In this document: positions 22,565-46,533 of the stretch, piece by piece
Numbering within the stretch: the first letter of the stretch is position 1
How the letters are laid out: the number at the start of each line of letters is the position of its first letter
Origin: Bacilli bacterium
Lineage (GTDB): Bacteria > Bacillota_I > Bacilli_A > ML615J-28 > CAG-698
DNA: 56,335 nt
Reading direction: 5' to 3'
Assembly (NCBI GenBank): GCA_050177775.1
Contig: JBFXGS010000001.1
Location: 1-56,335, forward strand
Position numbers and translations under genes: made by a program
The notes under the pieces: generated by a model
Told to the model about the DNA's origin: nothing
The model's input: the letters and a program-made list of their open reading frames with translations, nothing else
The model's database searches: none

Positions 22565-22593
22565 TTGACTAGACATTTAGTAAATGATATAAT
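22565..22593 (+). promoter_or_regulatory. Consensus sigma-A promoter of the first sugar-ABC operon, overlapping an operator-like motif
   Basis: TTGACT (22565-22570), 17 nt, TATAAT (22588-22593). The 11-mer TTGACTAGACA recurs at 41045. Confidence 0.75.
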
Positions 22594-30464: not shown

Positions 30465-31133
30465 ATGATGATGGAAAAAATAAAAAATCAGTTAATTGTT
30501 TCTTGTCAAGCTAAAGATAATGAACCATTAAAAGATCCAATGATTATGGCAAAGATGGCAGCATCGGCACTACTTGGGGGAGCAAAAGGCATTAGGGCAG
30601 CGGGCGTTGAAGATATTAAAGCCATTAAAGCATTTAACGATACGCTTGTTATCGGTTTAATAAAACGAAATTACCCTGATTCTGAAGTTTACATTACACC
30701 AACCAAAGTTGAAGTTTTAAAGTTGGTTGAAAGTGGTTGTGAAATAATTGCTCTCGATGGAACAAATCGTCACCGCCCCAATCAAGAAACTTTGGTAAGT
30801 TTAATCGTATTAATCCATGCCAACAATCGTTTAGCCATGGCAGATATTTCAACATTTGAAGAAGCTTTAATGGCGCAACAAGCAGGTGCTGATTGTATTT
30901 CCACAACTTTATCGGGATACACAAGTTATTCAAAGCAACAAGCGGGGCCTGATTTAAAATTACTTAGTAAATGTGTTGCAAAATTACAAATACCCGTGAT
31001 TGCGGAAGGACGGATTCGTAACCCTCAAGATTTGAAACGCGTTTTAAAGAAAAAACCTTTTGCAGTTGTCATCGGAACAGCGATTACGAGACCTTCAGAA
31101 ATCACCAAAACATTTGTGGAGTGCTTCAAATGA
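30465..31133 (+). CDS. nanE: N-acetylmannosamine-6-phosphate 2-epimerase
   Basis: 222 aa with the NanE pattern (LIVSCQA..EPL, IALDGT, ADIST, TTLSGYT, IAEGRI, VVIGTAITRP). Confidence 0.88.
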   Translation: MMMEKIKNQLIVSCQAKDNEPLKDPMIMAKMAASALLGGAKGIRAAGVEDIKAIKAFNDTLVIGLIKRNYPDSEVYITPTKVEVLKLVESGCEIIALDGTNRHRPNQETLVSLIVLIHANNRLAMADISTFEEALMAQQAGADCISTTLSGYTSYSKQQAGPDLKLLSKCVAKLQIPVIAEGRIRNPQDLKRVLKKKPFAVVIGTAITRPSEITKTFVECFK

Positions 31134-32773
31134 ACCGAAAAACTATTGTAGATTCAACCCATGATATATTGGCTTTTTGGAATCGTGAATTTGCGAACAA
31201 CTATCCTATTTCCGAACGCTTATTTAAAGAAAAGATTCTTAATTCAAAGGAAGTTGCTTTGGACGGATCGTATTCACTATATGACCAGGAAGAGTATATT
31301 GGCAGCGTTATTCTAAAATTTAACCAAATTAATGATAAAAAGCTTCAAGATAATGCTTATATTTCCTTTTTATTTGTGAATCCCAAATTTCGTAACCGCG
31401 GGTATGGTTCCCTTTTTATCAGTGATGTAATTCGTATTTGTATTGAAAATGAAAAATCAATGCTATACGTCGGCGGAGACAATGATTGTTTATTTTCGGG
31501 TGTTTTTTTAGATAACAATGATTTCGTTCATCAATTTTTTAAGGACCATCGGTTTAACATTGCTTATAAAAATTATAACTTAATATGTAAAACCTCACCC
31601 CAAGTACCAAATGATGAATATGAATATTCCACTTTAAAAACAGAAGAAGAACGAAACGAATTATTAAAACAAGTTCGCAAATTGTTTCCATCGCGTTGGC
31701 ATTATGATATTCAGAATTGTGAGCCGCAAGCGTTCTTCGTTGCGAAAGAAAACAAGGTAATTGTCGGGTTCGTTCGGTTAAACACTCCGCTTTTTTCACA
31801 AATTGCCAATAGTGTTAATACTTACCCTTTGTACAAAATGCTGGGAGGGATTGGACCGGTAGCCATTTTTCCCGAGAAAAAAGGCTCGGAACTAGCCAAC
31901 AACATCGTAAAACAAGCCGTAAAACATTTGTTTGATTTGGGTTGTTCAGAGGTAATAGTTGACTGGACAAACTTTATTGATTTCTTCAAGCAATCAGGAT
32001 TTTCCAATGTATCTAACTCCTATGTTCTTTACGAGATGCGCATTCGTGAAAAAATAAAAGGACCAAAAACGCATATCTATCAAGTTATCGAAAATGATTT
32101 GCGGCATGAAATCCTTGAAGGAAAATATAAACACGGGGACATTATTCCAAGTGAGGTGGAATTAGCGGCCACGTATAAAGTGACGAGAATGACTGTTCGT
32201 CAAGCCATTAGTAATTTGCTAATTGACGGCTTTCTTTATCGACATAAAGGCCGCGGGACTTTTGTAACTTACAACAAGCGGAACATTGATTTTGAGGATA
32301 AACCTTTCTTTTCTTTCACAAATGATAAAAATAATAACGGGGAATTAAGAACGACGGTTTTACTCTTTGAAATTAGAGCCGCTGATGAATTATTAGCCTT
32401 ACGTTTACAACTAAAATTAGGGGATCCTCTCTATTATGTGGAAAGACTGACTGCCCTAGAAAATAAGCCGTTGCTATTTGAAAGACTTTATCTTCCTGCT
32501 AATATGTATAATAATTTAAGCGTTGAAGTCTTTCAAAAATCATTTTATGAATATGCAAAAAACGAATTGCATTGGAATTTACTTTCCTACAATATCCATA
32601 TTGAGGCCAGAGGATTAAGTGGTCGAGCTGCGGAAGTGTTGCAATTATCAACGGGAGATCCAACTCTTTATTGCAGCAGTGTGACTCATTTAGCGAATGG
32701 ACGCGCCATTCTTTATTCTCGAACTTTCTTCAATGCCGAACAAGTAAACTTTTCTCATCAATTTTCTTGTTAA
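31130..32773 (+). CDS. Fusion protein: tandem GNAT-like domains + GntR/HutC-family wHTH + UTRA effector domain
   Basis: N-terminal roughly 310 aa has two GNAT-like cores (FVNPKFRNRGYGSLF; GPVAIFPEKKGSELANNIV). This is followed by IYQVIENDLRHEILEGKYKHGDIIPSEVELAATYKVTRMTVRQAISNLLIDGFLYRHKGRGTFV and a UTRA-like C-terminus. ATGA overlap with the nanE stop. Confidence 0.8.
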   Translation: MNRKTIVDSTHDILAFWNREFANNYPISERLFKEKILNSKEVALDGSYSLYDQEEYIGSVILKFNQINDKKLQDNAYISFLFVNPKFRNRGYGSLFISDVIRICIENEKSMLYVGGDNDCLFSGVFLDNNDFVHQFFKDHRFNIAYKNYNLICKTSPQVPNDEYEYSTLKTEEERNELLKQVRKLFPSRWHYDIQNCEPQAFFVAKENKVIVGFVRLNTPLFSQIANSVNTYPLYKMLGGIGPVAIFPEKKGSELANNIVKQAVKHLFDLGCSEVIVDWTNFIDFFKQSGFSNVSNSYVLYEMRIREKIKGPKTHIYQVIENDLRHEILEGKYKHGDIIPSEVELAATYKVTRMTVRQAISNLLIDGFLYRHKGRGTFVTYNKRNIDFEDKPFFSFTNDKNNNGELRTTVLLFEIRAADELLALRLQLKLGDPLYYVERLTALENKPLLFERLYLPANMYNNLSVEVFQKSFYEYAKNELHWNLLSYNIHIEARGLSGRAAEVLQLSTGDPTLYCSSVTHLANGRAILYSRTFFNAEQVNFSHQFSC

Positions 32774-41011: not shown

Positions 41012-41044
41012 TTATATCCTTGTGAAAACCTTTTCAATCTTTTC

Positions 41045-41073
41045 TTGACTAGACAAGTAAAGGAATGTATAAT
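41045..41073 (+). promoter_or_regulatory. Consensus sigma-A promoter of the giant lipoprotein gene, overlapping an operator-like near-palindrome
   Basis: TTGACT (41045-41050), 17 nt, TATAAT (41068-41073). CTTGACTAGACAAG (41044-41057) pairs at 6 of 7 palindrome positions. Confidence 0.75.
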
Positions 41074-41103: not shown

Positions 41104-44100
41104 ATGTCAAACATTAAAAAATTTCTATTTTTCCTAAGTTTAATCATTGTGGTGTTTTCGCTCACAGCTTGTAAACCCAAGGATACGGAAAAACCAAGCT
41201 TAGTGATTCCATCGCCAACGATTACTCATGTTGTTAATGAAGATGTTGACTTGCTAGAAGATATCACAGCAACAGATAATGTATCAGTTGCAGCCGATAT
41301 TACGATTGAAATATCTGATTTAGGCGGATATGACAAAACAAAAGTCGGCAATTATACCGTTACGATTAAAGCGACGGATAAAGCAGGCAACTTCATTACG
41401 CGAACGATTACTGTTAATGTAACCGAAGCGCCAATTTTGGATACTGTTGCTCCAACGTTAACAATAGGCAAACCAAGCATCACCCATGAGGTCAATGCCA
41501 CTGTCAATCTATTAGCCGATGTTACGGCAACAGACAATATTGATGCTGCCAACGACATTACCATTAGCATTTCTAATTATAATGGCTATGACAAGAGCGT
41601 TGCAGGAACTTATGTCATCACGGTAAAAGCGACGGACAAGAGTAACAACTTCTCGACCGCGACGATTACCGTAATTGTGAAAGATGATGTTTTGCCACCG
41701 ATGGTGACAGGAGCAGTAACAACCATTACGCAACTAGCTGGCGAAACGGTTGACCTGACAAAAGGTTTAACCGGTGTTGACAATAAAGATGGCGTTAATG
41801 TTATTTTTACAGTCACCAATCTTAAAGATTATAACAAAGATGTTCCCGGAACATACACCGTCGAAATCACCGCGTCCGACTCATCCGACAACCATGGCGT
41901 TCCTTTTAACCGCACAGTTGTTGTGGAAGAGGGGTATGCTCGTGCCGAAATGACTTCATTTGCTGGTGATACAATTCGTTACCAAGCTCTTTATAACCCA
42001 CAAATCATGAATAGTAATACGGCAACCGGTTATAACTCGGCTTATGATGGTCATTATGTTAATGTTCTTTCTAAAGAATACTTGGAATGGATCATTGAAT
42101 ACGCCCCTGAGCGTTTAGGAGCCGGTGTCGGTTGGAGCGTTATTGCTGTGACTGATTCTACGGATAAAATTGTTTATGTTCGCCATTGGAATAGTGGTGA
42201 AGCTTACCACGATGCTCAAGGAAATTTAGTTTCGGCAAAATCAGTTAACTGGTCAACGGGAACTATTCGCACATGGACGGAAGAAGTCGGTGGCCAAACC
42301 GTCGGCATGTCTAATGCGAAATACAGTTCAGCCGAAATGGGCATGATGATGGCCAATATTAATGAATGGGTTCCTGAAGGCGGACATGTTTTCATCTTCC
42401 TTAACTGGACAACGATTGGTGAAGATGAATCAGGCAATTTAATCAGCATCGCTAACTCAGCAACCATGCCTCGTTCAATGGGTGCTAATTACATTATGTC
42501 AAGTGATGAAAATGGCGATGATGTCATGGATTATGCCATTGGAAGAACTTTAAAAATTCTTGATAAACAATTGACCGATAATACTATTCGTCAAAGTTTT
42601 GATCCCGCTAATCCTTTCCCAATTATTTCGATTCCTAGTGTTCGTTATGTCACATCAACCGGAATTTGGAAGAACCGTTATACAGAAACAGTTTATTTGG
42701 ATGAATTCAATCAAACAAATCCATACAACCCTTTAAATGGCGTTTTTGCAAATGACGGAAAAGGAACCGACATTACTTCTTCAATTACATATAAAATCTT
42801 CCGTTATCAAACAACGGAACAAGCTTATGGATTATTGACTTCGCTCGCGATCGATGACCCACGTTGGGCGTATTATGTCGATGCTGCGGAATTATGGAAG
42901 AAGGAAGAAAATGAAGTAACCCTTGAACAAGTGATGGTTGATGCCAATAATGATTATCATTTTGTCGTTCAATACCAAGTTACCGCTAATGGCCATACCG
43001 ATACCGCTTATAAACTTATTCAAATAAAAGCGCAAGTTCCAGACTATATTGATTTATATGGAGCAACGGACTCGGTTTTCTCAGAAGCCATGGGACTTCA
43101 ACAACGTTTGGATATGAATCCAAATCTTGAAAACTTTGGTTCGATGACAACCACCGAAAAAGGGATTATTTATACCGCTTCGGCTTTCAAAGCATTAACT
43201 GTTTTCCCAGCCTTGGAAAAAGGCGTTGTTGTCGTCGTTGATCCGTTCTATCGCATTCAATTGATAAGAATCGTAAATGGAATAGCTTTTGAATTGGATG
43301 GAACAGGGACAGCCAAAACAACGGATTTAACTTGGATTTCAAGTCAAATGTTAGCCGGGTTAGATACGTTAGTTCCTGCCGGTGGATATGTCATGATTTA
43401 TCCGGAAGGACTTAATGGCGCTGTTCTCACAAAAGCTTTAAAAGCTTATTATGATTATGGTTATCAATCAGGAGTTTTAACAGAAGCTTTGCCTACTAAT
43501 GGAAAAGTTTCGGTTGAAATGATTATCAAAGAAGTCAAAGAAGTATCGACGTTCATCGTTAATGATGTGGCTCCACAGATTAACATTAACAATGCTTTAA
43601 CAAACATCTTTGCTGTGGAAAACAATAAAGCATCATTAGTGTTCTCTTCTGCAGGTGGTGGAGCGGGTTTCCGTTTGGATACCGGCAAAGCATACTACTA
43701 TACGAAAGCAGACTATGCTGTTTTATCACAACACACTGATGTTGTTTCTTCGTTCACAACTTTAAGTCCTAACAAAGGTGTGCCTTGGTTCCGTGACGGT
43801 GTCATTATCGTAGTTGATGCGAGTGGAAAATTTGTTCAAGCTCGCGTAATGACCACATCCGCTGCCGCTGAAATCCATGTTGACGGAACGGTTGTTTACG
43901 GAAATGCTGCGGTTGTAGCTTTAAGTGAAACGGCCAAAGCGGCTGCTGGTCAAGCTAACCTGACATGGGATTTAGTGCTTCCAAATGCCGCTAACACGGT
44001 TGCCCATGGACCGCTTGCGGATATTCAATCGGTTATTCCTGAAGGTGGAGCATTCTATATTCTTCCGGGTACCGCCAATACGGCCGTTCGAAATTATGCC

Positions 44101-46485
44101 ATTCAATTAGTTTGGAACAATGCCTACCCTGGAAGTGGAATCATTGTTGATGGCACCTTAGCTGAACAACCGGCCGGCAATCCAAGCCCAGCGACCAATG
44201 GTTTTGATTTCACAAACTATACCGCTGCTTACTTTGCAGGATTAACCTTTAAAGTTCAATTTGTTTCGACAGTTACGGCAAAACCAGCTAAAATTGCTCG
44301 TCCGGTTGCAACGATTACCGATAACATTTTAGCTTGGGAGCAAGCAACAAATGCCGGAAGTTATGATGTTTATGTTGATGGCGTTTTGAAAGCCGCCAAT
44401 GTCGGCACATTAGTAACGGATACAACAACTTATAATTATGATTTACGTTTATTAAAATTAGATGATCAAGTACATACCATTCAAGTTCGTGCGATTACCG
44501 CAAACGTCCAAACGGCTGCCACTTCGGTTTTATCGGATCCCGTCAGCGTTCAATTCATTGCGCTTACCACTCCGGAAAACTTAGTGGTTAACGATACCGT
44601 TCTTTCTTGGGGCGTTGTTGATAAAGCCGCAACTTATGAAATTTGGGTCAATGATGTTTTAGTCGGCACATCGGAAACCAATAGTTTTGACTTAAAAGAC
44701 TTCTTTGGTTCTTCAACAAAAGATGTTCAAGTAAAAGCTTTACCGGGTGATGCTGATAAAATGTATGTGGCTTCGCCATTAACCGAAAAATTCCCATTTG
44801 GTGAACCAACGACGACTTATTTAACATTAACGCTTGAAACGCAACATGTCACACACACGACGGTTGATGAATGGATGATTAAGCGTAATGTTACCGTTCC
44901 TAATGGTGGTTTCTCGGGTTCAAATGAAATCTTCTTAATTGAAGACGCTTTTGCTTTCACAAGCTATGCGACCCCAACCGGAGTAATCACTGCCAACGGG
45001 ACCTTCTTATTGTTCGGTGCGGACGGTAAATTAAAAGCGGTTCGGACCATTATCAATAATCATCAATGGTTAGCAACCAACGATCCGCAAGTCAACAACG
45101 GTTGGACGACTTTAACCGGAGTAACCGCGGGGCAAGTAAAAGTTCAAGAAGTTACCCCGTTATTAGCTGAAGGCGACTTTATCCTTGTCACCACTGCGGG
45201 AACAAGCAAGCAAGAAGGAGCAACCTTAAATGCTCGTGATTTCTTAGCTTATCACTTTATGGGTTCTTGGGATACAACCATTGCCAGCGGTGAAATTTGG
45301 CGTAAGACGATTGATCAATTCATTAATCCATCAACAGTTACTTATAAATTATCGACTTACCCGGTTACTTATTACCTAAGTTTAGCTTTGGAAAGTCAAC
45401 ATATTACTTACACGACGGTTGATGAATGGATGATTAAGCGTAATGTTACCGTTCCTAATGGTGGTTTCTCTGGTTCAAATGAAATCTTCTTAATTGAAGA
45501 CGCTTTTGCTTTCACAAGCTATGCGACCCCAACCGGAGTAATCACTGCCAACGGGACCTTCTTATTGTTCGGTTCGGACGGTAAATTAAAAGCGGTTCGG
45601 ACCATTATCAATAATCATCAATGGTTAGCAACCAACGATCCGCAAGTCAACAACGGTTGGACGACTTTAACCGGAGTAACCGCGGGGCAAGTAAAAGTTC
45701 AAGAAGTTACCCCGTTATTAGCTGAAGGCGACTTTATCCTTGTCACCACTGCGGGAACAAGCAAGCAAGAAGGAGCAACCTTAAATGCTCGTGATTTCTT
45801 AGCTTATCACTTTATGGGTTCTTGGGATACGACCATTGCCAGCGGTGAAATTTGGCGTAAGACGATTGATCAATTCATTAATCCATCAACAGTTACTTAT
45901 GCTGTTGTCGGACGTCCGTATGTTAACAAACTGGCTTTAACTTTAGAGAGTCAACAAATAACTTATACGACGGTTGATGAATGGATGATTAAACGTAATG
46001 TTGTGGTAGCCGATGGCGGCTTTGCCGGATCAACCAGTATTTTCTTCATCGAAGATGCTTTTGCTTTCACAACCTTTGCAACGCAAACAGCCTTTGTCAC
46101 GGTTAACGGGACTTTACTATTATTTGGAGCGGATAACAAACTTAAAGCAATCCGAACCATTATCAATAATCATCAATGGTTAGCAACCAACGATCCGCAA
46201 GTCAACAACGGTTGGACGACTTTAACGGGAATAACTTCCGGTCAAGTAAAAGTTCAAGAAATAACCCCGTTATTAGCAGAAGGCGATTACATTATTCTTT
46301 CGAATAATGTTACTACCAAACAAGCCGGTGCTACTTTAAATCCAAGAGATTTCTTAGCTTACCACTTTATGGGTTCTTGGGATACAACCATTGCCAGCGG
46401 TGAAATTTGGCGTAAGACGATTGATCAATTCATTAATCCATCAACAGTTGCTTTTGCCATTAAGAAAGTCGTTGTTACTTTCTAA
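41104..46485 (+). CDS. Giant surface lipoprotein (1793 aa) with Ig-like, FN3-like and repeated unassigned domains
   Basis: Lipobox LTAC at the N-terminus. Three roughly 90-aa Ig-like (DUF5011-like) repeats, two FN3-like modules and three C-terminal 185-aa tandem repeats. AAGGAGGAAA RBS. Confidence 0.85.
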   Translation: MSNIKKFLFFLSLIIVVFSLTACKPKDTEKPSLVIPSPTITHVVNEDVDLLEDITATDNVSVAADITIEISDLGGYDKTKVGNYTVTIKATDKAGNFITRTITVNVTEAPILDTVAPTLTIGKPSITHEVNATVNLLADVTATDNIDAANDITISISNYNGYDKSVAGTYVITVKATDKSNNFSTATITVIVKDDVLPPMVTGAVTTITQLAGETVDLTKGLTGVDNKDGVNVIFTVTNLKDYNKDVPGTYTVEITASDSSDNHGVPFNRTVVVEEGYARAEMTSFAGDTIRYQALYNPQIMNSNTATGYNSAYDGHYVNVLSKEYLEWIIEYAPERLGAGVGWSVIAVTDSTDKIVYVRHWNSGEAYHDAQGNLVSAKSVNWSTGTIRTWTEEVGGQTVGMSNAKYSSAEMGMMMANINEWVPEGGHVFIFLNWTTIGEDESGNLISIANSATMPRSMGANYIMSSDENGDDVMDYAIGRTLKILDKQLTDNTIRQSFDPANPFPIISIPSVRYVTSTGIWKNRYTETVYLDEFNQTNPYNPLNGVFANDGKGTDITSSITYKIFRYQTTEQAYGLLTSLAIDDPRWAYYVDAAELWKKEENEVTLEQVMVDANNDYHFVVQYQVTANGHTDTAYKLIQIKAQVPDYIDLYGATDSVFSEAMGLQQRLDMNPNLENFGSMTTTEKGIIYTASAFKALTVFPALEKGVVVVVDPFYRIQLIRIVNGIAFELDGTGTAKTTDLTWISSQMLAGLDTLVPAGGYVMIYPEGLNGAVLTKALKAYYDYGYQSGVLTEALPTNGKVSVEMIIKEVKEVSTFIVNDVAPQININNALTNIFAVENNKASLVFSSAGGGAGFRLDTGKAYYYTKADYAVLSQHTDVVSSFTTLSPNKGVPWFRDGVIIVVDASGKFVQARVMTTSAAAEIHVDGTVVYGNAAVVALSETAKAAAGQANLTWDLVLPNAANTVAHGPLADIQSVIPEGGAFYILPGTANTAVRNYAIQLVWNNAYPGSGIIVDGTLAEQPAGNPSPATNGFDFTNYTAAYFAGLTFKVQFVSTVTAKPAKIARPVATITDNILAWEQATNAGSYDVYVDGVLKAANVGTLVTDTTTYNYDLRLLKLDDQVHTIQVRAITANVQTAATSVLSDPVSVQFIALTTPENLVVNDTVLSWGVVDKAATYEIWVNDVLVGTSETNSFDLKDFFGSSTKDVQVKALPGDADKMYVASPLTEKFPFGEPTTTYLTLTLETQHVTHTTVDEWMIKRNVTVPNGGFSGSNEIFLIEDAFAFTSYATPTGVITANGTFLLFGADGKLKAVRTIINNHQWLATNDPQVNNGWTTLTGVTAGQVKVQEVTPLLAEGDFILVTTAGTSKQEGATLNARDFLAYHFMGSWDTTIASGEIWRKTIDQFINPSTVTYKLSTYPVTYYLSLALESQHITYTTVDEWMIKRNVTVPNGGFSGSNEIFLIEDAFAFTSYATPTGVITANGTFLLFGSDGKLKAVRTIINNHQWLATNDPQVNNGWTTLTGVTAGQVKVQEVTPLLAEGDFILVTTAGTSKQEGATLNARDFLAYHFMGSWDTTIASGEIWRKTIDQFINPSTVTYAVVGRPYVNKLALTLESQQITYTTVDEWMIKRNVVVADGGFAGSTSIFFIEDAFAFTTFATQTAFVTVNGTLLLFGADNKLKAIRTIINNHQWLATNDPQVNNGWTTLTGITSGQVKVQEITPLLAEGDYIILSNNVTTKQAGATLNPRDFLAYHFMGSWDTTIASGEIWRKTIDQFINPSTVAFAIKKVVVTF
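44815..46482 (+). repeat. Three tandem 555-bp direct repeats inside the giant lipoprotein gene
   Basis: Anchor ACGACGGTTGATGAATGGATGATTAA at 44857, 45412 and 45967 (period 555). Copies 1 and 2 differ at 3 of 489 core positions. Copy 3 is diverged but contains blocks identical to copies 1 and 2. Confidence 0.95.
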
Positions 46486-46505: not shown

Positions 46506-46533
46506 ATAAGTCGAGGAGCAATCCTCGACTTAT
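46506..46533 (+). terminator. Strong hairpin after the giant gene (weak or partial terminator, no clear T-run)
   Basis: ATAAGTCGAGGA-GCAA-TCCTCGACTTAT 12-bp stem, followed by CGTTAATC rather than a T-run. Confidence 0.5.

What the first reader, a model, noticed from the sequence alone, without database searches (positions are those of the whole stretch)
41104..46485. 1793-aa lipoprotein made of Ig-like, FN3-like and about six copies of an unassigned roughly 180-aa domain
A lipobox (LTAC) is followed by three roughly 90-aa Ig-like repeats at about 41190-41950, which contain ATDNV/ATDNI and TVTIKATDKAGN/VITVKATDKSNN. The central 900 aa then contain at least three diverged segments ending in a P(E/A)GG(H/Y/A)(V/F)(F/M/Y)I motif (EWVPEGGHVFIFLNW, LVPAGGYVMIYPEG, VIPEGGAFYILPG). 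These are preceded by VVVD..-type strands. The same layout appears in the three C-terminal repeats (LLFGADGKLKAVRTI ... LLAEGDFILVT). Two FN3-like modules lie at about 44290-44800. The gene has its own consensus promoter carrying the island operator motif and sits between two sugar ABC systems. It is likely a surface glycan-capture protein built from a novel binding domain.
Basis: partly seen in the sequence, partly recalled or inferred. Interest (0 to 1): 0.6.

Follow-up and report, generated by a model that had tools for sequence, protein, structure and literature searches.

The report
Giant surface lipoprotein, six uncatalogued modules
This gene encodes a real 1793-residue membrane-anchored surface protein of a small, probably wall-less bacterium; it carries six copies of a rare protein module with no match in Pfam, NCBIfam or solved structures, and most likely holds an amino-sugar polymer at the cell surface for the sugar importer encoded next to it, though binding is untested.

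Summary
ORF 41104-46485 (+) encodes a 1793-aa lipoprotein (lipobox SLTAC, Cys23). Its order is 3 Ig-like domains, module A, a fourth Ig-like domain, modules B and C, 2 FN3 domains, then three 185-aa repeats (R1-R3).

With alignments enriched by distant relatives, profile-profile comparison links the modules. A~B/C gives 96.7% probability and B/C~R gives 93.7%. Seven other protein families of the island used as controls all score below 1%. "About six copies of one domain" is therefore right.

The module has no Pfam, NCBIfam or PDB-sequence match. Foldseek found no solved-structure match for the central model. Only 64 of 1.84 billion cluster representatives carry it, all from Acholeplasma- or Haloplasma-like Bacilli.

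Its partners are Ig-like and FN3 domains and, in four clusters, an alpha/beta-hydrolase esterase. No glycosidase domain was found as a partner. The gene always heads a DUF624-SBP-permease cassette directly after NAGPA and DUF4127 genes, behind a conserved NagR-like operator in its promoter.

Best reading (about 0.5): a multivalent surface capture protein for an acidic amino-sugar polymer. This is context-based, and no binding has been shown.

This scan met the orthologue before on other DNA (e1-951905), with the same conclusion.

The parts
41044..41073 (+). Promoter (-35 TTGACT at 41045, -10 TATAAT ending 41073) overlapping an operator-like near-palindrome CTTGACTAGACAAGT (41044-41058)
   Evidence: The promoter scan gives 11 of 12 matches. 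The 10-mer TGACTAGACA occurs exactly only here and at 22566 in the window. (A)GTTGACTAGACAAGT is conserved upstream of the orthologues in L016 and L018, and the perfect palindrome TGTCTAGACA lies at the head of those loci. The resemblance to HutC/NagR-type GntR operators is from memory; a GNAT-GntR/UTRA regulator gene lies at 31121-32773.
41104..41172 (+). Signal peptide with lipobox SLTA-C (Cys23)
   Evidence: Translation. Cys23 is invariant in 17 homologues. Lgt and LspA genes are present in the genome.
41182..41925 (+). Three tandem Ig-like domains (aa 27-104, 113-190, 193-274) of the Bact_surface_Ig-like / InlK_D3 type
   Evidence: Self-BLAST E 5e-26 to 8e-7. Pfam InlK_D3 scores 29 bits against a cut-off of 25; PF16403 is below its cut-off here but above it in relatives.
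41929..42588 (+). Module A (aa 276-495), the most conserved copy of the new module; contains VNVLSKEYLEW, WSVIAVTD, IVYVRHW and WVPEGGHVFIF
   Evidence: Dense invariant columns in 17 homologues. hhalign A~BC gives 96.7%, E 4e-10. The BC profile hits aa 349-439 at 17 bits. The AF2 secondary structure shares the layout of the other copies.
42589..43053 (+). Fourth, probable Ig-like domain with an insertion (aa 496-650)
   Evidence: The best Foldseek hit of the central model is the Ig-like domains of chitinase MmChi60 (E 5.8e-3, probability 1.0, about 150 columns). This part of the profile matches the Ig region of other lipoproteins. The assignment is weaker than for the other parts.
43054..43503 (+). 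Module B (aa 651-800), with GVVVVVD, IQLIR and LVPAGGYVMIYPEG
   Evidence: hhalign B~C gives 96.9%, E 1.4e-10. Conserved G664, R668, P702, G707, R722 and G761 across 62 non-redundant instances.
43504..44253 (+). Module C (aa 801-1050), a B-type module with insertions; contains GGAGFRL, GVIIVVD, FVQAR and VIPEGGAFYILPG
   Evidence: G853, R857, P894, G899, R914, G982. AF2 pLDDT is about 80-94 in this part.
44254..44805 (+). Two FN3 domains (aa 1051-1140, 1141-1234)
   Evidence: hhalign F1~F2 gives 97.2%. The AF2 model has pLDDT 89.8, and Foldseek matches tandem FN3 structures at E 7.5e-6 to 1e-4.
44806..46482 (+). Three tandem 185-aa R modules (aa 1235-1419, 1420-1604, 1605-1793); 555-nt DNA units
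   Evidence: R1-R2 are 93% and R1-R3 75% identical at protein level. hhalign BC~R gives 93.7%. Conserved G1269, K1311, G1333, W1334, G1357, D1358, R1378 and R1400 in 47 non-redundant instances. AF2 gives a compact alpha/beta domain with pLDDT about 90.
46506..46533 (+). 12-bp stem, 4-nt loop hairpin between the lipoprotein gene and the DUF624-SBP-permease cassette; no U-tract follows
   Evidence: Sequence. The intergenic region folds at -27.7 kcal/mol, z -5.9. Hairpins of different sequence occupy the same place in L016 and L018 (z -6.7 and -4.7). The consensus scan did not call it a terminator.

Best explanation
The product is an N-terminally lipid-anchored, elongated surface protein of an Acholeplasma-like, probably wall-less bacterium.

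The four Ig-like and two FN3 domains act as spacers. The six copies of a previously uncatalogued alpha/beta module (A, B, C, R1-R3) form a multivalent binding surface for an acidic amino-sugar polymer, for example phosphodiester-linked wall or capsule polymers of other bacteria.

The protein would hold that polymer next to the surface-anchored GHL10 and NAGPA enzymes encoded upstream. It would then pass the fragments to the large solute-binding protein and ABC permeases encoded downstream.

Expression is probably switched on together with the rest of the island, through a GntR/HutC (NagR-like) operator that overlaps the -35 box.

Shown here: the gene, the lipobox and maturation enzymes, the domain architecture, the homology of the six modules, the rarity and lack of annotation of the module, the conserved gene order and the conserved operator-like sequence.

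Inferred: surface exposure, carbohydrate binding, the anionic nature of the ligand and hand-over to the importer.
For: Lipoprotein status:
- The lipobox and invariant Cys23.
- Lgt (two copies) and LspA are present.
- No PBP transpeptidase was found in the 84%-complete genome.

Genomic context:
- Orthologues only 41% and 58% identical sit in the same order: PIG-L, GHL10, 320-aa unknown, GH84, DUF4127, NAGPA, lipoprotein, DUF624, ~970-aa SBP, 2 permeases, NHL, Yip1, DUF5696.
- Small paralogous lipoproteins (Acholeplasma hippikon P0028, Haloplasmataceae P0032) also lie beside NAGPA, DUF4127, GH20, ROK and GntR genes.
- In a 401-genome sample of the class, all 20 genomes with a true module match also have DUF4127, against 26 of the other 381.
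- In 10 of 13 genomes that carry only distant paralogues, the two genes share a contig within 30 kb.

Accessory-module behaviour:
- The module is joined to Ig-like and FN3 domains and, in four clusters, to an alpha/beta-hydrolase esterase carrying GxSxG (P0032, P0049, P0053, P0075).
- No glycoside-hydrolase domain turned up among the 52 relatives scanned.

Conservation fits a binding site for an anionic sugar rather than a glycosidase:
- B/C type: two Arg plus Gly/Pro, with no conserved Asp or Glu.
- R type: Lys, Trp, Asp and two Arg.

Regulation: the promoter/operator is conserved in orthologous loci.
Against: There is no direct evidence of carbohydrate binding or of surface exposure.

The fold of the module could not be compared on its own. 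The central model had no Foldseek hit with E<=1e-3, and the FN3 domains masked the R module in the hit lists. No resemblance to any known CBM is therefore shown.

Module A is far more conserved than a typical binding module, with many invariant polar residues. That would also suit an enzyme.

The fixed order A, B/C, R suggests a cooperating machine rather than interchangeable binding units.

The co-occurrence counts are not phylogenetically independent.
Confidence: 0.5

Rival explanations
1. Part of the protein is an enzyme of a new family. Module A alone, or the A-B-C core, would be an endo-acting depolymerase, lyase or phosphodiesterase for the polymer the island consumes. The R repeats would act as its substrate-binding arms.
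For: - Module A has an unusually dense set of invariant polar residues among homologues only 40-60% identical overall.
- Across 7 non-redundant groups it keeps N298, Y326, R337, W344, S345, D351, R360, Y407, N418, N434 and N451.
- A occurs once per protein and always first.
- The modules are alpha/beta domains, not the beta-sandwich typical of most CBMs.
Against: - There is no match to any catalytic family in Pfam, NCBIfam or PDB.
- Only one acidic residue (D351) is conserved in A, and none in B/C.
- Many family members lack A entirely (BC-R and BC-R-BC architectures).
- The B/C module is appended to a bona fide esterase, as accessory modules are.
- The locus already encodes surface-anchored GHL10 and NAGPA enzymes.
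Confidence: 0.25
2. It is a structural or adhesive surface protein of a wall-less cell: a coat, an adhesin or a variable surface antigen. Its link to the sugar locus would be only positional.
For: - Ig-like and FN3 arrays and near-identical tandem repeats are typical of adhesins and of size-variable lipoproteins in wall-less bacteria (general knowledge).
- R1 and R2 are 95% identical at DNA level.
- The R cassette exists in two very different versions among orthologues.
Against: - The position at the head of the ABC cassette is conserved in distant orthologues, with the same operator-like sequence.
- Paralogues in other families also lie in NAGPA/DUF4127 loci.
- The number of R copies is three in all 17 full-length orthologues, so it is not size-variable.
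- The module occurs fused to esterases.
Confidence: 0.15
3. It is a docking platform that organises the other exported proteins of the island (GHL10, NAGPA, the giant SBP) by protein-protein contacts, like a scaffoldin. It would not bind the glycan itself.
For: - The modules occur in multiple copies and in a fixed order.
- Several island proteins are exported or anchored and are always co-encoded.
Against: - No matching partner module was found in any island protein; hhalign gives 0.7% or less for seven families.
- The esterase fusions put the module in cis with an enzyme, which argues for substrate targeting.
Confidence: 0.1

Closest known systems
Surface glycan-binding lipoproteins of polysaccharide-utilisation loci (SusE/SusF-type SGBPs of Bacteroidota, e.g. 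BT4661)
   Same: Both are lipid-anchored, multi-domain, non-catalytic surface proteins. Both are encoded directly beside the importer of a glycan-utilisation locus and are co-regulated with it. Both carry several tandem putative binding modules on Ig-like spacers.
   Different: There is no sequence or detectable fold relationship: BT4661 (4ak1) appears only at E 0.64. The importer here is a CUT1-type ABC system with an SBP, not SusC/D. The modules are alpha/beta rather than beta-sandwich. Binding has not been shown.
Carbohydrate-binding modules (CAZy CBM families) appended to enzymes or solute-binding proteins in Gram-positive glycan loci
   Same: The module is discrete, repeated and shuffled between proteins. 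It occurs in cis with a hydrolase (an esterase) in four clusters and in glycan-locus proteins otherwise. Arg and Trp are conserved, which would suit a sugar or phosphate site.
   Different: It matches no CBM family model. Only weak GH85_C-like hits appear, and they fall on the FN3 region. The fold is unassigned and binding is untested. The three subtypes keep a fixed order, which is unusual for CBMs.
Bact_surface_Ig-like (PF16403, former DUF5011) / InlK_D3 lipoproteins of Mollicutes-like and other Bacillota
   Same: The N-terminal Ig-like domains belong to this type. 34 of 52 relatives carry PF16403 above threshold. Public records name relatives only by this domain ("immunoglobulin-like domain-containing protein", "Cry22Aa Ig-like domain-containing protein").
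   Different: That family describes only the spacer domains. The six modules that make up about 1150 of the 1793 residues are not covered by it.
The orthologue already met by this scan on other DNA (note e1-951905, 1794 aa, about 87-89% identical, probably P0002)
   Same: Same architecture and same locus position. The earlier conclusion was the same: six uncharacterised modules and probable polymer capture.
   Different: This report adds:
- significant profile links between all three subtypes, with negative controls;
- the esterase fusions;
- the two R-cassette versions;
- the 20/20 co-occurrence with DUF4127;
- the conserved operator and the intergenic hairpin.

Membership tests
Bacterial lipoprotein (Lgt/LspA substrate) | N-terminal signal peptide with a basic n-region and hydrophobic core, ending in a lipobox [LVI][ASTVI][GAS]C | tested here: met
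   The N-terminus is MSNIKKFLFFLSLIIVVFSLTAC, with L-T-A-C and Cys23. Cys23 is invariant in 17 homologues.
Bacterial lipoprotein (Lgt/LspA substrate) | The genome encodes the maturation enzymes Lgt and signal peptidase II | tested here: met
   PF01790 gives two matches over the cut-off (215 and 105 bits). PF01252 gives one match (109 bits).
Bacterial lipoprotein (Lgt/LspA substrate) | Acylation and surface location shown experimentally | not testable with these tools
   This needs Triton X-114 partitioning, palmitate labelling or surface proteomics.
Bact_surface_Ig-like / InlK_D3 Ig-like domains (PF16403, PF18981) | Score above the Pfam gathering threshold | tested here: met
   InlK_D3 scores 29.0 bits against a cut-off of 25, in 3 stretches. 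PF16403 scores 20.8 against 27 in this protein but is over threshold in 34 of 52 relatives.
Fibronectin type III domain | Seven-strand beta-sandwich fold matching solved FN3 structures | tested here: met
   The AF2 model has pLDDT 89.8. Foldseek gives E 7.5e-6 to 1e-4 and probability 1.0 to tandem FN3 structures such as 7s7k, 6q9m and 3pdd.
Fibronectin type III domain | Match to the Pfam fn3 sequence model | tested here: not met
   There is no fn3 hit at E<=1. Only GH85_C appears, at E 0.028.
CAZy carbohydrate-binding module | Sequence membership in an existing CBM family | tested here: not met
   No CBM model is hit by the modules in Pfam, even at E<=10 across 34 B/C and 51 R sequences. There are no PDB sequence hits at E<=10.
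CAZy carbohydrate-binding module | A discrete, independently folding module found appended to carbohydrate-active enzymes | tested here: inconclusive
   The module is discrete and shuffled. It is appended to alpha/beta-hydrolase esterases in four clusters. The esterases' substrates are unknown, and no glycosidase fusion was seen.
CAZy carbohydrate-binding module | Demonstrated carbohydrate binding | not testable with these tools
   This needs recombinant protein and binding assays.
SusE/SusF-type surface glycan-binding proteins | Lipoprotein encoded next to the importer of a glycan-utilisation locus | tested here: met
   The gene lies directly upstream of DUF624-SBP-permeases, and this position is conserved in three divergent loci.
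SusE/SusF-type surface glycan-binding proteins | Sequence or fold homology to SusE/F and partnership with SusC/D | tested here: not met
   There is no significant Foldseek or HMM similarity. The importer is an ABC system.
Glycoside hydrolase or other known catalytic family | Match to a catalytic family model, or a conserved catalytic acid pair | tested here: not met
   There are no catalytic-family hits. The B/C type has no conserved Asp or Glu, and the A type has only D351.
New module superfamily (A, B/C, R subtypes) proposed here | Significant profile-profile similarity between subtypes over most of the module, absent in controls | tested here: met
   A~BC gives 96.7% and BC~R 93.7%; A~R gives only 31%. 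Seven control families give 0.7% or less. The R HMM hits B/C-type modules of P0028 and P0030 at 16-18 bits.
New module superfamily (A, B/C, R subtypes) proposed here | Shared secondary-structure order | tested here: met
   The shared order is: strand-helix, strand ending in D, strand ending in R/K, strand, a variable loop with Trp, strand after P-x-G-G or E-G-D, then a helix with Arg. It was read from the DSSP strings of the two AF2 models. Superposition of coordinates was not possible.

The most novel reading that the evidence does not exclude
The module is a new fold-level family of polymer-recognition domains, specific to wall-less Acholeplasma- and Haloplasma-like bacteria. It would recognise phosphodiester-linked amino-sugar polymers, such as teichoic-acid-like or capsule-like material of neighbouring bacteria.

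The conserved A-B-C core would be more than a passive binder. It would be a new kind of surface depolymerase or polymer-threading device that works with NAGPA and DUF4127 enzymes. If so, this protein would be the entry point of an undescribed pathway for feeding on other cells' walls.
Probability: 0.15. Interest if true: 0.75.

Novelty: new variant of a known kind. Interest (0 to 1): 0.5.

Why it matters
If the module binds an acidic amino-sugar polymer, it would found a new carbohydrate-binding family. It would also give a handle on a conserved but entirely uncharacterised scavenging locus (NAGPA, DUF4127, GHL10, DUF5696) in wall-less bacteria of digesters and guts.

The ligand of this protein would say what the whole locus eats. 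The family is small (64 clusters in 1.84 billion representatives) and includes one cultured carrier, Acholeplasma hippikon, so the question can be tested directly.

The reach is limited. The family is narrow in taxonomy, the function is inferred from context only, and the scan had already met the orthologue elsewhere.

Tried and rejected
- Whole-protein self-BLAST returned only the identity hit. Cutting the protein into 120-aa segments was needed.
- hhalign with alignments made only from the 17 orthologues could not link R or A to B/C (0.2-15% probability). The link became significant only after adding distant relatives found by the genome search and the search for homologous proteins.
- Foldseek of the 775-aa central model (pLDDT 72) against PDB gave nothing at E<=1e-3.
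- I included the two FN3 domains in the second model. This confirmed FN3, but FN3 hits then filled all 50 listed rows in both PDB and BFVD, so the R fold could not be read.
- PDB sequence profiles found nothing: the whole family at E<=1, and the B/C profile at E<=10.
- Tallies of weak Pfam hits over 34 B/C and 51 R sequences showed no recurrent family.
- I tested whether another island protein carries the module, including the beta-rich tail of NAGPA and the N-terminal modules of the SBP. It does not: 0.7% or less. The genome has the module only in this gene.
- Tandem Repeats Finder reports nothing because its longest period is 500, below the 555-nt unit. The repeat finder shows the repeats.
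- Literature searches for Acholeplasma surface glycan lipoproteins and for bacterial phosphodiester glycosidases gave nothing relevant.
- A double-psi beta-barrel (RlpA- or expansin-like) or ferredoxin-like topology crossed my mind from the strand and helix order. It could not be tested and is not claimed.
- Three of the 23 genomes that matched (G198, G015, G222) matched only the Ig-like part of the profile, so I excluded them from the co-occurrence count.
Full report
**1. The gene**

The ORF listing and translate confirm one open frame, 41104-46485 on the + strand, 1793 aa. An AGGAGG site lies 7 nt before the ATG. The N-terminus MSNIKKFLFFLSLIIVVFSLTAC is a lipoprotein signal with lipobox L-T-A-C. 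Cys23 is invariant in 17 homologues.

The assembly is 1.39 Mb in 137 contigs and 84% complete. It encodes two Lgt homologues and LspA. No PBP transpeptidase was found, and the only clear Mur-ligase-type match is a single 431-aa frame. This agrees with earlier notes that the organism is Acholeplasma-like and probably wall-less, but an incomplete genome cannot prove absence.

**2. Domain map**

Segment self-BLAST shows:
- three Ig-like repeats (aa 27-104, 113-190, 193-274);
- weak internal similarity in the centre (702-794 ~ 894-1016; 415-432 ~ 749-766);
- a pair at 1051-1131 and 1149-1213;
- three 185-aa repeats (1235-1419, 1420-1604, 1605-1793).

Pfam recognises only the Ig-like part (InlK_D3, 29 bits against cut-off 25). 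NCBIfam finds nothing over threshold.

An AF2 model of aa 1040-1419, built on 51 aligned sequences, has pLDDT 89.8. Its first half matches tandem FN3 structures (E 7.5e-6, probability 1.0), which confirms the two FN3 domains. Its second half (R1) is a compact alpha/beta domain with pLDDT about 90.

An AF2 model of aa 276-1050 has pLDDT 72, rising to 80-94 in modules B and C. Foldseek finds no PDB match at E<=1e-3. The best hit is the Ig-like domains of chitinase MmChi60, aligned to a stretch of about 150 columns. I assign that hit to aa 496-650, the part of the family profile that also matches the Ig region of other lipoproteins.

The resulting architecture is: lipobox, Ig x3, A (276-495), Ig-like (496-650), B (651-800), C (801-1050), FN3 x2, R1-R3.

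**3. Are the six modules one domain?**

With orthologue-only alignments, only B~C (96.9%, E 1.4e-10) and FN3-1~FN3-2 (97.2%) were significant. A~B/C and R~B/C were weak, at 4-15%.

A search of 401 genomes of the class with the central profile found full-length orthologues in seven genomes, counting the window's own. Partial matches in 16 more genomes fell in other lipoproteins. Three of these 16 matched only the Ig-like part and are set aside in section 5. One such protein served as a query and brought in further relatives from Acholeplasma hippikon and Haloplasmataceae.

In these smaller proteins the B/C-type and R-type modules look visibly alike (for example NGVIVITDNDFNVKLVR ... VIPDGGYIMF against STVVVLDSEGKPKLIN ... 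ILAEADMLLIG). The R HMM hits B/C-type modules of P0028 and P0030 at 16-18 bits, while reversed-sequence decoys reach at most 3 bits.

With the enriched subtype alignments, hhalign gives:
- A~BC 96.7% (E 4.2e-10, 149 columns);
- BC~R 93.7% (E 2e-7, 141 columns);
- A~R 31%.

The same procedure against alignments of GHL10, the 320-aa unknown, NAGPA, DUF4127, DUF624, the SBP and the NHL protein gives 0.7% or less.

The DSSP strings of the two models show one shared order in A, B, C and R:
- strand then helix (VNVLSKEYLEW / AYYYTKADY / IFLIEDAFAF);
- a strand ending in Asp (SVIAVTD / VVVVVD / VIIVVD / FLLFGAD);
- a strand ending in Arg or near a Lys (IVYVR / IQLIR / FVQAR / KLKAVR);
- a third strand;
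- a variable loop with a Trp;
- a strand after P-x-G-G or E-G-D;
- a helix with an Arg.

**4. How known and how common is the module?**

- The whole-family profile has no PDB sequence hit in the module regions at E<=1.
- The B/C profile has none at E<=10.
- Per-sequence Pfam scans at E<=10 show no recurring family.
- HMMER with the B/C profile against 1.84 billion cluster representatives finds only 64 proteins at E<=1e-3.
- Source names, where given, are "Bacilli bacterium", "Haloplasmataceae bacterium", "Acholeplasmatales bacterium" and Acholeplasma hippikon. Product names are "hypothetical" or refer only to the Ig-like domain.
- In the window's own genome the module occurs only in this gene.

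Architectures recur in a fixed order:

| Architecture | Count |
|---|---|
| A-BC-BC-R-R-R | 17 |
| BC-R | 14 |
| BC-R-BC | 14 |
| A-BC-BC, some with further BC copies | 9 |
| BC alone, many of them fragments | 23 |

Partner domains among 52 relatives are Bact_surface_Ig-like (34), GH85_C-like/FN3 (7) and Flg_new (2). Four clusters (P0032, P0049, P0053, P0075) carry a C-terminal alpha/beta-hydrolase of the DLH/Abhydrolase_2 type. P0032 carries G-V-S-M-G. No glycoside-hydrolase domain was found.

**5. Context**

Upstream in the window lie GH84 NAGidase, NanE, a GNAT-GntR/UTRA regulator, GHL10, a 320-aa unknown, DUF4127, NAGPA and DUF4127. Downstream lie DUF624, a 973-aa SBP, two permeases, an NHL/TPR protein, Yip1 and DUF5696.

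Orthologues P0020 (41% identical) and P0009 (58%) sit in the same order. The small relatives P0028 (A. hippikon, record LR215050) and P0032 also lie beside NAGPA, DUF4127, GH20, ROK and GntR genes.

In the 401-genome sample, 23 genomes matched the central profile, but three matched only the Ig-like part. All 20 remaining genomes have DUF4127, which is present in 46 of 401 overall. In 10 of the 13 genomes that carry only distant paralogues, a module gene and a DUF4127 gene share a contig within 30 kb. These genomes are related, so the counts overstate independence; they do span seven families.

**6. Regulation**

TTGACT-17-TATAAT at 41045-41073 is the best promoter match in the region. It overlaps the near-palindrome CTTGACTAGACAAGT. 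The 10-mer TGACTAGACA occurs exactly only here and in the promoter before the first SBP gene at 22566.

The same GTTGACTAGACAAGT precedes the orthologues in L016 and L018, and the perfect palindrome TGTCTAGACA heads those loci. From memory, this resembles HutC/NagR/DasR-type operators (GTCTAGAC core). That fits the GntR/UTRA regulator in the island but was not tested.

Between the stop codon and the DUF624 gene lies a 12-bp hairpin with no U-tract (46506-46533). Hairpins of different sequence occupy the same position in both orthologous loci (z -4.7 to -6.7). This suggests a transcript-end or stabiliser element with read-through into the ABC cassette.

**7. Residue conservation**

Among instances under 60% identical to each other:

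| Subtype | Instances | Conserved residues |
|---|---|---|
| B/C | 62 | G664/G853, R668/R857, P702/P894, G707/G899, R722/R914, G761/G982 |
| R | 47 | G, K1311, G-W1334, G-D1358, R1378, R1400 |
| A | 7 groups | N298, P299, Y326, R337, W344, S345, D351, R360, Y407, N418, G427, N434, N451 |

In the B/C type, two arginines and no acidic residue are conserved. Basic residues plus Trp without an acid pair suit recognition of an anionic sugar polymer better than glycoside hydrolysis. This is an inference, and module A remains ambiguous.

**8. Reading**

The most economical explanation is a lipid-anchored, multivalent capture protein for the acidic amino-sugar polymer that the island degrades and imports. 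It would be analogous in role, not in ancestry, to SusE/F-type surface glycan-binding lipoproteins and to CBM-bearing proteins of Gram-positive glycan loci. I put this at about 0.5.

| Rival | Estimate | Main points |
|---|---|---|
| New enzyme in A or A-B-C | 0.25 | For: A's conservation. Against: no acid pair, many members lack A, the module behaves as an accessory to esterases. |
| Coat or adhesin unrelated to the locus | 0.15 | Against: conserved position, conserved operator, constant copy number. |
| Protein-docking scaffold | 0.10 | Against: no partner module found. |

**9. Novelty**

The module is absent from Pfam-A (2025 copy), NCBIfam release 20 and PDB sequences, and it is rare. The kind of protein, a surface binding lipoprotein of a glycan locus, is familiar. 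I therefore class it as a new variant of a known kind.

The scan had already met the roughly 87-89% identical orthologue on other DNA (note e1-951905), with the same conclusion.

**10. Limits**

- No coordinates were available, so the modules could not be superposed or searched alone.
- R1 and R2 are 95% identical in DNA, so copy number in this short-read-like assembly could in principle be wrong. However, all 17 full-length orthologues also have three copies.

Noticed in passing
window 44806-46482; compare P0006-P0008 and P0013-P0021: The triple R cassette exists in two very different versions among orthologues. In the window's clade (P0001, 2, 5, 9, 10) the R copies are 55-86% identical to R1. 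In the other orthologues they are only 20-25% identical, although the central region stays 50-64% identical and does not follow that split. The window's version is closer to the R module of the small BC-R lipoproteins (E 1e-17) than to the other orthologues' R (E 1e-4). P0084 mixes both versions in one array. This suggests cassette exchange at the membrane-distal end.
   Followed up: partly
window 46506-46533; L016 15026-15100; L018 15149-15236: A strong hairpin with no U-tract sits between the lipoprotein gene and the ABC cassette. It is present with different sequences in three orthologous loci (z -4.7 to -6.7). It may be a 3'-end stabiliser or a partial terminator that sets the ratio of lipoprotein to transporter.
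   Followed up: partly
window 41044-41058 and 22565-22575; L016 1414 and 9925; L018 572 and 9933: An operator-like motif, TGTCTAGACA or TGACTAGACA, overlaps the -35 boxes of island promoters and is conserved across genomes. It resembles NagR/DasR-type sites (from memory) and probably belongs to the GNAT-GntR/UTRA regulator at 31121-32773.
   Followed up: partly
P0032, P0049, P0053, P0075 (locus L020 8001-9719 for P0032): Four clusters of lipoproteins have the architecture Ig-like + B/C module + alpha/beta-hydrolase esterase. P0032 lies next to FAD_oxidored, DUF4127, a 309-aa unknown, NAGPA and GH20 genes. This hints that the target polymer is O-acylated.
   Followed up: partly
window 42490-42540 (aa 463-480): Module A ends with an invariant acidic run, SDE(N/D)GDDxxDYAxGR (D468, D472, D476 invariant). 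It looks like a calcium-binding loop. This was not examined further.
   Followed up: no
L019 (Acholeplasma hippikon LR215050, 177645-200572): A cultured species carries a 975-aa BC-R-BC lipoprotein followed by DUF4886, ROK, GntR/UTRA, a 319-aa unknown, NAGPA, GH20 and another Ig-like surface protein. This makes it a tractable organism for testing the module.
   Followed up: no
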